From assembly GCF_048403405.1 (NCBI RefSeq), contig NZ_CP183129.1: a stretch of 64,000 nucleotides of DNA; one strand, 5' to 3'. Shown piece by piece: positions 40,786-41,270 of this stretch. Positions within the stretch are counted from its first letter, which is position 1; every line of letters starts with the position of its first letter. The notes under the pieces were generated by a model. That model made no database searches. It was not told where the DNA came from and saw only the letters and a list, made by a program, of their open reading frames with translations. This DNA is from Escherichia coli (GTDB taxonomy: Bacteria; Pseudomonadota; Gammaproteobacteria; Enterobacterales; Enterobacteriaceae). A program made the position numbers and the translations under genes.

Positions 40786-41270
40786 GAGTATTGGTATTCT
40801 CATTTCCCTTCTTTTAGAGCTGGTTTGTTAAATGCCAGCTTGCAGATTCATCGTTCCATCGCCAGTAATATATTCAAGGGGAAATTGCTATTTTTCTTAA
40901 AATATTAAGCATAACCCTTATTTTATAGCGAATATTCCTAAAGGCACAAATGAATGAAAAAGAGTTTTAATAGAGTTCTTTTTTAGCAATTAATGCTATT
41001 CTTTGTTAAATATGATGATGGTAATTTTCTTATTAAAAGAAACATTTTTCTTATTAAGCAACAATAACTCATGGTTCATTTTTAAATAAAATAAGAACTA
41101 TGCAATTTTTAATTTATCAATTCGAAAGTATTAGCAAATTAGCCAAATTGACACCTTCCCACCTCCAACCAACACTCAATACAGACCTCTGACAATTTAA
41201 TAAGTTTCATTTTTAATGTCTGACGACTCATCTCTTTCGTGGCTGTATTGTTTGTATATGGAGCGTTTAT

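What the first reader, a model, noticed from the sequence alone, without database searches (positions are those of the whole stretch)
40786..41270. About 500-bp strongly AT-rich leader upstream of the autotransporter
The region has long A/T tracts and no ORF. This is typical of H-NS-silenced promoters of horizontally acquired adhesins and could also hold a long 5' UTR. It lies between the lsrK terminator and the autotransporter start.
Basis: inference. Interest (0 to 1): 0.25.

Follow-up and report, generated by a model that had tools for sequence, protein, structure and literature searches.

The report
H-NS-bound upstream region of yneO autotransporter
The AT-rich stretch is the control region of a usually silent E. 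coli surface-adhesin gene (yneO), already reported in strain K-12 to be coated by the silencing protein H-NS and, in an ETEC strain, bound by the stress regulator MarA, so it is real but ordinary.

Summary
Window 40786-41270 has GC 0.30 against 0.475 for the window and is the most AT-rich 485-bp stretch in the 64 kb. It is the lsrK-yneO spacer of an E. coli chromosome.

It has three parts:
- the lsrK terminator hairpin (40746-40786);
- a 23-27% GC block (about 40861-41140) that changes at the neutral rate but stays AT-rich in every strain examined;
- a 130-bp block next to the start codon (41141-41270), as conserved as coding sequence. It holds the two best sigma-70 promoter candidates and a short, unstructured 5' UTR.

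Published K-12 work lists this spacer as one of 78 "promoter islands". It was bound by H-NS in all three ChIP studies compiled there, and genomic SELEX flagged H-NS, RpoD and RpoS holoenzyme sites. A MarA ChIP-seq peak with in vitro binding maps to a marbox in ETEC. The window carries that marbox at 40981-40999 with one base changed.

A long structured leader, an sRNA, a small protein and a Dam-type phase switch find no support. Derepression in an hns mutant was not found in the literature searched.

Verdict: already known, low interest. The H-NS reading is supported for binding, the long-UTR idea is not, and horizontal acquisition is equivocal.

The parts
40746..40786 (+). lsrK intrinsic terminator: hairpin with core stem ACAGCCAC/GTGGCTGT, followed by TAGTTTTTGAG
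   Evidence: The fold gives -18.8 kcal/mol, z -3.2, with 0 of 200 shuffles as stable. The hairpin is invariant in 8 strains. The simple terminator scan missed it, probably because the loop is 12 nt.
40787..40860 (.). Distal spacer with moderate GC (about 0.40 over 40742-40860). It contains an imperfect palindrome, AGCTGG..CCAGCT, at 40818-40840.
   Evidence: 95.8% identical to K-12 over 40742-40860. 15 of 119 columns vary among 8 strains.
40839..41184 (.). AT-rich block equivalent to the published K-12 'promoter island' 1596197_345 (ydeK/lsrK). This is the H-NS-bound stretch.
   Evidence: Coordinates were mapped from PMC3661553 Table 1 using the U00096.2-to-.3 offset of 1976 bp and the yneO start. 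GC is 0.23-0.27 in all 8 strains. Divergence is neutral: 0.089 against 0.079 at 4-fold sites. Promoter-like site density is 3.4-4.4 times the window average but equals the composition-matched shuffles.
40981..40999 (-). Marbox (MarA/SoxS/Rob site), ATAGCATTAATTGCTAAAA
   Evidence: It has 2 mismatches to AYnGCACnnWnnRYYAAAY and is the only such match in the spacer. The ETEC allele gcactaattgctaaa is a MarA ChIP-seq peak and binds MarA at 0.3 uM. The window's core 15-mer, gcattaattgctaaa, is identical to the validated grxA<>ybjC site (PMC5684230).
41141..41270 (+). Conserved promoter-proximal block: core promoter(s) plus a short 5' UTR
   Evidence: 1 difference in 130 from K-12 (P = 3e-4 against the neutral rate). 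4 of 130 columns vary among 8 strains, against 39 of 282 in the middle block. At least 99% identical in 2909 of 4100 genomes. Single copy with no paralogue.
41148..41176 (+). Promoter candidate P1: TTGACA-17-AACACT, predicted start near 41183
   Evidence: Highest PWM score on the + strand (10.9). Invariant in 8 strains. No experimental start site was found.
41189..41217 (+). Promoter candidate P2: CTGACA-17-TTTAAT, predicted start near 41224 (5' UTR about 47 nt)
   Evidence: This is the promoter sequence Shimada 2014 assigned to the RpoD-holoenzyme SELEX site for yneO. It has the second-best PWM score (9.9). Both hexamers are invariant in 8 strains; one spacer base varies.
41260..41263 (+). 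Shine-Dalgarno GGAG, 7 nt before the ATG
   Evidence: Read directly from the sequence. Invariant.
41271..46691 (+). yneO-type (ECSE_1600 family) AIDA-I-like autotransporter, intact, 1806 aa
   Evidence: Pfam finds ESPR, PATR, AC_1/Pertactin and the autotransporter beta-domain. RefSeq annotates it as such. dN/dS is 0.13 against another intact allele.

Best explanation
This is the transcriptional control region of the yneO (ydeK/ydeU) autotransporter gene of E. coli. It has two working parts.

Upstream part. A block of about 300 bp with 23-27% GC (about 40839-41184) serves as a landing and spreading platform for the nucleoid protein H-NS. H-NS recognises composition and shape rather than a particular sequence, so the bases drift at the neutral rate while the AT-richness is kept. 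The same composition creates many weak promoter-like sites that can hold RNA polymerase unproductively, which is the published 'promoter island' behaviour.

Proximal part. The 130 bp next to the gene (41141-41270) carries the real core promoter and a short unstructured 5' UTR with a GGAG ribosome-binding site. The promoter is CTGACA-17-TTTAAT and/or TTGACA-17-AACACT. This block is under purifying selection.

Inferred mechanism. An H-NS filament extending from the upstream block over the core promoter keeps yneO off under laboratory conditions. A marbox about 190-235 bp upstream of the predicted start sites binds MarA, and perhaps SoxS or Rob. It may modulate or counteract silencing during stress.

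Shown: the composition, the mosaic conservation, the motifs, and published binding of H-NS, RpoD and RpoS holoenzymes (K-12) and MarA (ETEC) to the orthologous spacers. Inferred: which promoter fires, that H-NS represses it, and that MarA has any effect on yneO.
For: Composition: lowest GC in the window.

Identity of the locus.

H-NS and RNA polymerase binding in K-12:
- promoter island bound by H-NS in all compiled ChIP data sets (PMC3661553);
- H-NS SELEX flag and RpoD holoenzyme site with promoter CTGACA-17-TTTAAT (PMC3946193);
- RpoS holoenzyme SELEX peak in the same spacer (PMC5493296).

MarA: ChIP-seq peak plus in vitro binding at the yneO marbox in ETEC (PMC5684230). The marbox is present in the window.

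Mosaic conservation:
- middle block 0.089 divergence against 0.079 at 4-fold degenerate sites;
- proximal block 0.008, P = 3e-4;
- population-wide contrast;
- AT-richness kept in all 8 strains.

Promoters and gene:
- both top promoter candidates sit in the conserved block;
- yneO is under purifying selection where intact (dN/dS 0.13).

IS elements: IS1 and IS5-like elements hit this spacer repeatedly. From general knowledge, this is usual for AT-rich H-NS-bound DNA.
Against: - All binding data come from K-12 or ETEC orthologues, not this strain. The middle block differs from K-12 by 9%.
- I found no report of yneO derepression in an hns mutant and no mapped transcription start. The supplement look-ups failed.
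- The strict sigma-70 scan found no promoter at all in 40500-41500. The excess of promoter-like sites is fully explained by base composition.
- Only one near-match to the H-NS high-affinity motif is present, no more than the window average. There is no 10-11 bp A-tract phasing.
- The marbox is too far from either promoter candidate for class I or class II activation.
- yneO is frameshifted or truncated in 8 of the 11 strains whose annotation I inspected. In those strains the promoter now drives a pseudogene.
Confidence: 0.75

Rival explanations
1. Long 5' leader. yneO is transcribed from a promoter near the lsrK end of the spacer, for example TTCATC-16-TATATT with a start near 40881, close to the RpoS SELEX peak. 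The AT-rich stretch would then be a leader RNA of about 390 nt that controls translation or stability.
For: The RpoS holoenzyme SELEX peak maps about 420 bp upstream of the ATG. Promoter-like sites exist there. A 16-nt stretch at 40845-40860 can pair with the SD/AUG region (-13.4 kcal/mol). The CACCUCC tract at 41161-41167 can pair with the GGAG.
Against: The middle block diverges at the neutral rate, so no sequence or structure is being maintained. Folds are no better than shuffles (z +1.2 and -0.15). The anti-SD pairing is matched by 9% of shuffled tracts. There is no Rfam match. SELEX-chip resolution is coarse.
Confidence: 0.07
2. MarA-driven promoter. The marbox at 40981-40999 is the operative element. 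MarA, SoxS or Rob would activate a nearby promoter, either towards yneO (backward orientation, class I) or on the opposite strand (forward orientation, class II), producing a stress-induced transcript.
For: MarA binds the orthologous site in vivo and in vitro. The core 15-mer here equals a validated strong site. marRAB lies 21 kb away in the same window.
Against: No acceptable -35/-10 pair sits at class I (about -52 to -72) or class II (about -42) distance on either strand (spacing rules from my knowledge of Martin et al. 1999). The marbox is 193-234 bp from the two best start sites. It is no more conserved than the surrounding neutral DNA: 2 of 19 columns vary, against 14% for the block. Only 15 of the 33 MarA peaks in that study lay near a sigma-70 peak.
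Confidence: 0.12
3. Functionless spacer. The AT-rich block is leftover DNA whose composition reflects mutational AT bias or a foreign origin. H-NS and RNA polymerase binding would be incidental consequences of composition, with no effect on yneO.
For: The substitution rate is neutral. Promoter-like density equals that of shuffled sequence. There is no enrichment of the H-NS motif and no A-tract phasing. IS insertions and deletions in it are tolerated.
Against: GC stays at 0.23-0.27 in all eight strains despite 9-14% sequence turnover. From my own recollection, not computed here, that is below what mutation bias alone would give in E. coli. H-NS bound next to a promoter usually represses it. 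The block length is nearly constant across strains.
Confidence: 0.12
4. Hidden gene. The spacer encodes a small protein (30-aa ORF at 41100-41192) or a small RNA.
For: The plus-strand 30-aa ORF is intact in 8 of 8 strains. The proximal block is conserved even in strains where yneO is a pseudogene.
Against: There is no Shine-Dalgarno before the ORF. It has 5 nonsynonymous against 3 synonymous changes. The minus-strand ORF carries stops in 4 of 8 strains. There is no Rfam hit, no terminator inside the spacer on either strand, and nothing annotated in MG1655.
Confidence: 0.03

Closest known systems
Promoter island ydeK/lsrK of E. coli K-12 (Panyukov & Ozoline 2013, PMC3661553; entry 1596197_345)
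   Same: It is the orthologous DNA, with the same flanking genes, the same length and the same AT-rich composition. H-NS binding is reported in all compiled ChIP data sets.
   Different: The middle block is 9% diverged and even more AT-rich here (GC 0.232 against 0.267). The downstream gene is intact here but frameshifted in K-12. The binding data were not obtained in this strain.
H-NS-bound upstream regions of other cryptic E. coli autotransporter adhesin genes (ycgV, yfaL)
   Same: These are also listed as promoter islands bound by H-NS in all studies (Table 1). From my own knowledge (Roux et al. 2005), they too are ESPR/AIDA-type adhesins that are silent in laboratory culture.
   Different: There is no sequence relationship. 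The proximal block is single-copy with no paralogue in any E. coli genome.
mar/sox/rob regulon promoters (marRAB, grxA-ybjC)
   Same: A marbox is present whose core 15-mer is identical to the grxA<>ybjC site. MarA binding to the orthologous site is documented.
   Different: The marbox lies about 190-235 bp upstream of the candidate start sites, outside class I and class II geometry. No MarA-dependent transcription has been reported.
agn43 (flu) regulatory region, the Dam/OxyR phase switch of another E. coli autotransporter
   Same: It is a regulatory leader upstream of a self-associating autotransporter adhesin.
   Different: There is no GATC site anywhere in the 529-bp spacer, so Dam-dependent phase variation is excluded.
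IS-mediated activation of H-NS-silenced operons (bgl, flhDC; my own knowledge)
   Same: IS1 and IS5-like elements have inserted into the AT-rich block in several strains. In Z142-1 the IS sits about 170 bp upstream of an intact yneO and leaves the conserved core block untouched.
   Different: No expression data exist. The Z142-1 IS5-like insertion is unique to one genome, and three of the IS1 events are associated with deletions.

Membership tests
H-NS (xenogeneic) silenced promoter region | Marked AT-richness relative to the genome over a few hundred bp | tested here: met
   GC is 0.299 (core 0.235) against 0.475 for the window. This is the lowest 485-bp stretch in the 64 kb.
H-NS (xenogeneic) silenced promoter region | H-NS occupancy in vivo | not testable with these tools
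   Published for the K-12 orthologue only: bound in the Grainger, Kahramanoglou and Oshima data sets (PMC3661553) and flagged by H-NS genomic SELEX (PMC3946193).
H-NS (xenogeneic) silenced promoter region | Derepression of the downstream gene when hns is removed | not tested
   No report was found in the searchable literature. The only expression note is a 2.2-fold rise of ydeK in a Cpx-induction experiment.
H-NS (xenogeneic) silenced promoter region | Downstream gene horizontally acquired | tested here: inconclusive
   The gene has GC 0.501. It was flagged foreign by 1 of 5 methods. The locus is present in about 4100 of 5426 genomes.
Promoter island (Panyukov & Ozoline) | Listed among the 78 PlatProm-defined islands | tested here: met
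   The orthologous K-12 spacer is entry 1596197_345, ydeK(-)/lsrK(-). PlatProm itself could not be run.
Promoter island (Panyukov & Ozoline) | Very high density of promoter-like start points over at least 300 bp | tested here: inconclusive
   A simple -35/-10 PWM gives 3.4-4.4 times the window density, but no more than mononucleotide shuffles of the same DNA. The strict scan found 0 sites.
Promoter island (Panyukov & Ozoline) | RNA polymerase binding with little productive transcription (short oligos only) | not testable with these tools
   RpoD and RpoS holoenzyme SELEX peaks are reported in the spacer. No transcript data were accessible.
mar/sox/rob regulon promoter | Marbox matching AYnGCACnnWnnRYYAAAY | tested here: met
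   40981-40999 on the minus strand has 2 mismatches. The core equals the validated grxA<>ybjC site.
mar/sox/rob regulon promoter | MarA binding in vivo and in vitro | not testable with these tools
   Published for the ETEC H10407 allele, which differs by one base (ChIP-seq peak, binding at 0.3 uM).
mar/sox/rob regulon promoter | Class I or class II spacing and orientation relative to a -35/-10 pair | tested here: not met
   The marbox centre lies about 193 and 234 bp upstream of the two best predicted starts. No adequate promoter sits at class I or class II distance on either strand.
Structured 5' leader, riboswitch or sRNA | Match to a known RNA family, or a fold more stable than shuffles | tested here: not met
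   Rfam returns only chance-level hits outside the spacer. Fold z-scores are +1.2 and -0.15.
Structured 5' leader, riboswitch or sRNA | Sequence conservation along the leader | tested here: not met
   The middle block diverges at the neutral rate. Only the last 130 bp are conserved.
Dam/OxyR phase-variation switch (agn43 type) | Cluster of GATC sites in the regulatory region | tested here: not met
   There are 0 GATC sites in the 529-bp spacer.
Rho-independent terminator (lsrK) | GC-rich hairpin followed by a T run | tested here: met
   40746-40786: -18.8 kcal/mol, z -3.2, followed by TAGTTTTT. Invariant hairpin.

The most novel reading that the evidence does not exclude
The AT-rich island may be a stress-responsive anti-silencing switch rather than only a passive H-NS platform. 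MarA, encoded 21 kb away, or its paralogues SoxS and Rob, would bind the distal marbox about 200 bp upstream of the core promoter and loosen the H-NS filament. Antibiotic or oxidative stress would then turn on an otherwise cryptic autotransporter adhesin. That would be a mode of MarA action outside the classical class I and class II activation geometry.
Probability: 0.1. Interest if true: 0.45.

Novelty: already known. Interest (0 to 1): 0.15.

Why it matters
The region matters mainly for annotation. It should be read as the regulatory region of the yneO adhesin gene, made of an H-NS-bound promoter island, a MarA site and a conserved core promoter. It should not be read as a long leader or a hidden gene.

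The small additions made here are:
- the split between a neutrally drifting AT-rich block that keeps its composition and a tightly conserved 130-bp core;
- the marbox allele;
- the repeated IS1 and IS5-like hits.

These give a clear design for promoter dissection. They also suggest that MarA control of a cryptic adhesin is worth one reporter experiment. None of this would surprise a specialist.

Tried and rejected
- **Rfam scan** of 40000-42000 at E up to 1: only two chance-level eukaryotic hits, both outside the spacer.
- **Strict promoter and terminator scan:** 0 promoters. It missed the lsrK terminator, probably because of its 12-nt loop.
- **RNA folds** of the short and long putative leaders: no better than shuffles.
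- **Anti-SD idea** (CACCUCC tract pairing with GGAG): -9.2 kcal/mol, and 9% of shuffles do as well.
- **Small ORFs:** the minus-strand one is broken in 4 of 8 strains. The plus-strand one lacks a Shine-Dalgarno and shows no excess of synonymous changes.
- **H-NS and other DNA motifs:** the H-NS high-affinity motif and A-tract phasing show no enrichment or periodicity. No GATC sites, IHF consensus sites or CpxR-like repeats are present.
- **Direct repeat** TTTTCTTATTAA x2 at 21-bp spacing: not conserved in K-12, so probably chance or slippage.
- **Paralogous leaders:** none found, even with sensitive blastn.
- **Cross-species search** through genome contigs with the N-terminal 400 aa: only two loci, in assemblies labelled Nanosynbacter and Marinomonas. 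At 89-95% identity these are probably E. coli contamination, so there is no footprinting beyond E. coli.
- **Start-site and H-NS ChIP tables:** the Cappable-seq supplement was truncated and the Kahramanoglou supplement is not held.
- **Literature searches** for ydeK/ydeU/b1509/b1510: mostly noise.

Full report
**Where we are.** The window is an E. coli chromosome. The stretch 40700-41330 is 100% identical to strain TUM14771, and 4228 of 5426 complete E. coli genomes hold a match to it, 4010 of them over at least 80% of its length. RefSeq annotation of that strain and of K-12 gives the gene order lsrR, lsrK, an 'ECSE_1600 family autotransporter' (yneO, formerly ydeK/ydeU), then hipB and hipA. 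In the window:
- lsrK is 39149-40741.
- The autotransporter is 41271-46691 and is intact at 1806 aa. Pfam finds ESPR, passenger repeats, autochaperone/pertactin and the beta-barrel domain.
- The spacer between them is 529 bp (40742-41270). Nothing is annotated in it, even in MG1655.

The flagged 485 bp have GC 0.299, against 0.475 for the window and 0.50-0.52 for the flanking genes. Only 0.09% of equally long windows in the 64 kb are as low, and all of those overlap this locus. The core, 40860-41140, reaches GC 0.235. There are ten A/T-only runs of 8-17 nt. 'No ORF' is nearly right. Three ORFs of 30-53 aa touch the region, but none looks coding.

**Anatomy: the spacer is a mosaic.** I aligned eight diverse strains and compared the window with K-12.
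- Fourfold-degenerate sites in the six surrounding genes differ at 7.9% (147 of 1868). I used this as the neutral yardstick.
- The AT-rich middle (40861-41140) differs at 8.9%, which is indistinguishable from neutral.
- The 130 bp next to the ATG (41141-41270) differ at one position (0.8%; P = 3e-4 under the neutral rate). That is about the level of constraint seen in coding sequence.
- Among the eight strains, 39 of 282 middle columns vary, against 4 of 130 proximal ones.
- The contrast holds across the species. The proximal block is at least 99% identical to the window in 2909 of 4100 genomes and never below about 97% in the rows listed. The middle block is only 90-95% identical in 3642 of 4107 genomes.
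- Despite this turnover, the middle block keeps GC 0.23-0.27 in every strain. Composition is retained, not sequence.

**What the conserved block contains.** A position-weight scan puts the two best plus-strand sigma-70 candidates inside it:
- TTGACA-17-AACACT (41148/41171, start near 41183);
- CTGACA-17-TTTAAT (41189/41212, start near 41224).

The second is exactly the promoter that Shimada et al. assigned to the RpoD-holoenzyme genomic-SELEX site for yneO (PMC3946193). A GGAG sits 7 nt before the ATG. The resulting 5' UTR would be 47-88 nt. It folds no better than shuffled sequence (z +1.2 and -0.15). The block has no second copy or paralogue in any E. coli genome.

**What is already published about this spacer.**
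- *Promoter island and H-NS.* Panyukov & Ozoline list 'ydeK(-)/lsrK(-), 1596197_345' as one of 78 'promoter islands' of K-12. They mark it as bound by H-NS 'according to all studies', meaning the Grainger, Kahramanoglou and Oshima ChIP data (PMC3661553). Using the 1976-bp offset between U00096.2 and U00096.3 and the yneO start, the island corresponds to about 87-432 bp upstream of the ATG, or window 40839-41184. That is the AT-rich core.
- *SELEX.* Shimada 2014 also flags an H-NS SELEX site in the spacer. Shimada 2017 reports an RpoS-holoenzyme SELEX peak there (PMC5493296).
- *MarA.* Sharma et al. found a MarA ChIP-seq peak at yneO in ETEC H10407, with the site gcactaattgctaaa and in vitro binding at 0.3 uM (PMC5684230). 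The window has gcattaattgctaaa on the minus strand at 40982-40996 (full marbox 40981-40999, 2 mismatches to the 19-nt consensus). That 15-mer is identical to the equally strong grxA<>ybjC site in the same table.
- *Cpx.* ydeK rose 2.2-fold in a Cpx-induction array (PMC2731931).

I found no report of a mapped start site or of derepression in an hns mutant.

**My own test of the 'island' property.** Promoter-like sites are 3.4-4.4 times denser in 40839-41184 than in the window as a whole. Mononucleotide shuffles of the same DNA give the same numbers, and the strict scan finds none. The island character is therefore a by-product of AT-richness. There is also no enrichment of the H-NS high-affinity motif and no helical A-tract phasing. 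Together with neutral sequence drift at constant composition, this fits H-NS recognising bulk AT-rich DNA.

**Most likely mechanism.**
- *Shown:* composition, mosaic conservation, motifs, and published binding of H-NS, RNA polymerase holoenzymes and MarA to the orthologous DNA.
- *Inferred:* H-NS nucleates on the AT-rich block and spreads over the adjacent core promoter, keeping yneO silent. The conserved 130 bp is the working promoter plus a short UTR. MarA binding about 190-235 bp upstream is outside class I and class II geometry, so it is either incidental or acts against silencing.

yneO is a real gene where intact (dN/dS 0.13 between two intact alleles). That explains why its promoter is conserved even though 8 of the 11 strains whose annotation I inspected carry frameshifted or truncated copies.

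**Rivals.**
- *Long leader RNA.* Disfavoured by neutral evolution of the middle block, the lack of structure and the lack of any Rfam match. Complementarities to the SD region exist but are not better than chance.
- *Local MarA-dependent promoter.* It lacks a suitably placed -35/-10 pair.
- *Purely functionless spacer.* Hard to exclude without genetics, but the maintained 23-27% GC and constant length argue for a compositional constraint.
- *Small protein or sRNA.* No support.
- *Dam/OxyR switch like agn43.* Excluded, because there is no GATC.

**IS elements.** All five rearranged alleles I inspected involve insertion sequences inside or at the edge of this spacer:
- IS1 at about 41039-41044 in ET82;
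- an IS5-like ISEc68 at 41098-41102 in Z142-1, where yneO is intact;
- IS1-bounded deletions ending at 40757 (strain 100416), 41062 (EC-07) and 41177 (PI24).

These are documented. The Z142-1 insertion is unique among 5426 genomes. At most about 1% of genomes have a breakpoint in either block. This fits the known preference of IS1 and IS5 for AT-rich, H-NS-bound DNA (my knowledge), and is a minor point.

**Verdict.** The feature is real and correctly placed. Its main interpretation, an H-NS target upstream of an adhesin gene, matches published data for the orthologous K-12 locus, so it is already known. The 'long 5' UTR' alternative is not supported, and 'horizontally acquired' is only weakly supported. 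Interest is low.

Noticed in passing
window 18662-20627: The marRAB operon (marB 18662-18880, marA 18912-19301, marR 19316-19750, all on the minus strand) and marC (19962-20627) lie in the same window. Their own marbox, ATGCCACGTTTTGCTAAAT, is at 19830-19848. The regulator that binds the yneO leader is therefore encoded only about 21 kb away.
   Followed up: partly
L004 (ET82), L005 (Z142-1), L006 (100416), L015 (PI24), L016 (EC-07); window junctions about 41039-41044, 41098-41102, 40757, 41177, 41062: Five independent IS events (four IS1, one IS5-like ISEc68) hit this 529-bp spacer. Three are associated with deletions: the yneO 5' part, all of yneO, or the whole lsr operon. In Z142-1 the IS sits about 170 bp upstream of an intact yneO, which could relieve silencing. 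That insertion is unique to one genome.
   Followed up: partly
window 41271-46691 and orthologues in L002, L004, L007, L008, L010-L012, L016: yneO is intact in the window, in cap25a and in Z142-1. It is frameshifted or truncated in 8 of the 11 strains whose annotation I looked at, including K-12, O157:H7, O111 and CE10. Intact alleles nevertheless show dN/dS of 0.13. This suggests repeated recent inactivation of a gene that is otherwise under selection.
   Followed up: partly
window 40818-40840: An inverted repeat lies just downstream of the lsrK terminator. In K-12 it is a perfect 9-bp stem with a 5-nt loop (AGCTGGCTT GTTAA AAGCCAGCT). In the window it is weakened to 6 bp plus a wobble and a mismatch. 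No T run follows on either strand, and its function is unknown.
   Followed up: no
window 41025-41057: A perfect 12-nt direct repeat, TTTTCTTATTAA, occurs twice, 21 bp apart (two helical turns). The first copy differs at 2 positions in K-12, so it is probably chance or slippage in low-complexity DNA.
   Followed up: partly
window 46692-46901: The yneO-hipB spacer is also unusually divergent from K-12 (89.7% identity with 14 gap columns), although it holds the hipBA promoter and operators.
   Followed up: no
window about 56349-56594, 22695-22764, 63075-63248 and 1-46 (window starts): These are the other low-GC troughs in the window (minimum GC 0.33-0.35 over 485 bp). They are less extreme than the yneO leader and were not examined.
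   Followed up: no
L013 (contig from a 'Candidatus Nanosynbacter' MAG) and L014 ('Marinomonas sp.' contig): The only genome-contig hits to the yneO N-terminus, at 89-95% identity, are in assemblies of unrelated organisms. They are probably E. coli contamination of those assemblies.
   Followed up: no
(E. coli genomes): Three matches to the spacer are on records labelled as plasmids, and about 1200 of 5426 genomes lack the lsrK-yneO junction altogether. Neither point was examined.
   Followed up: no
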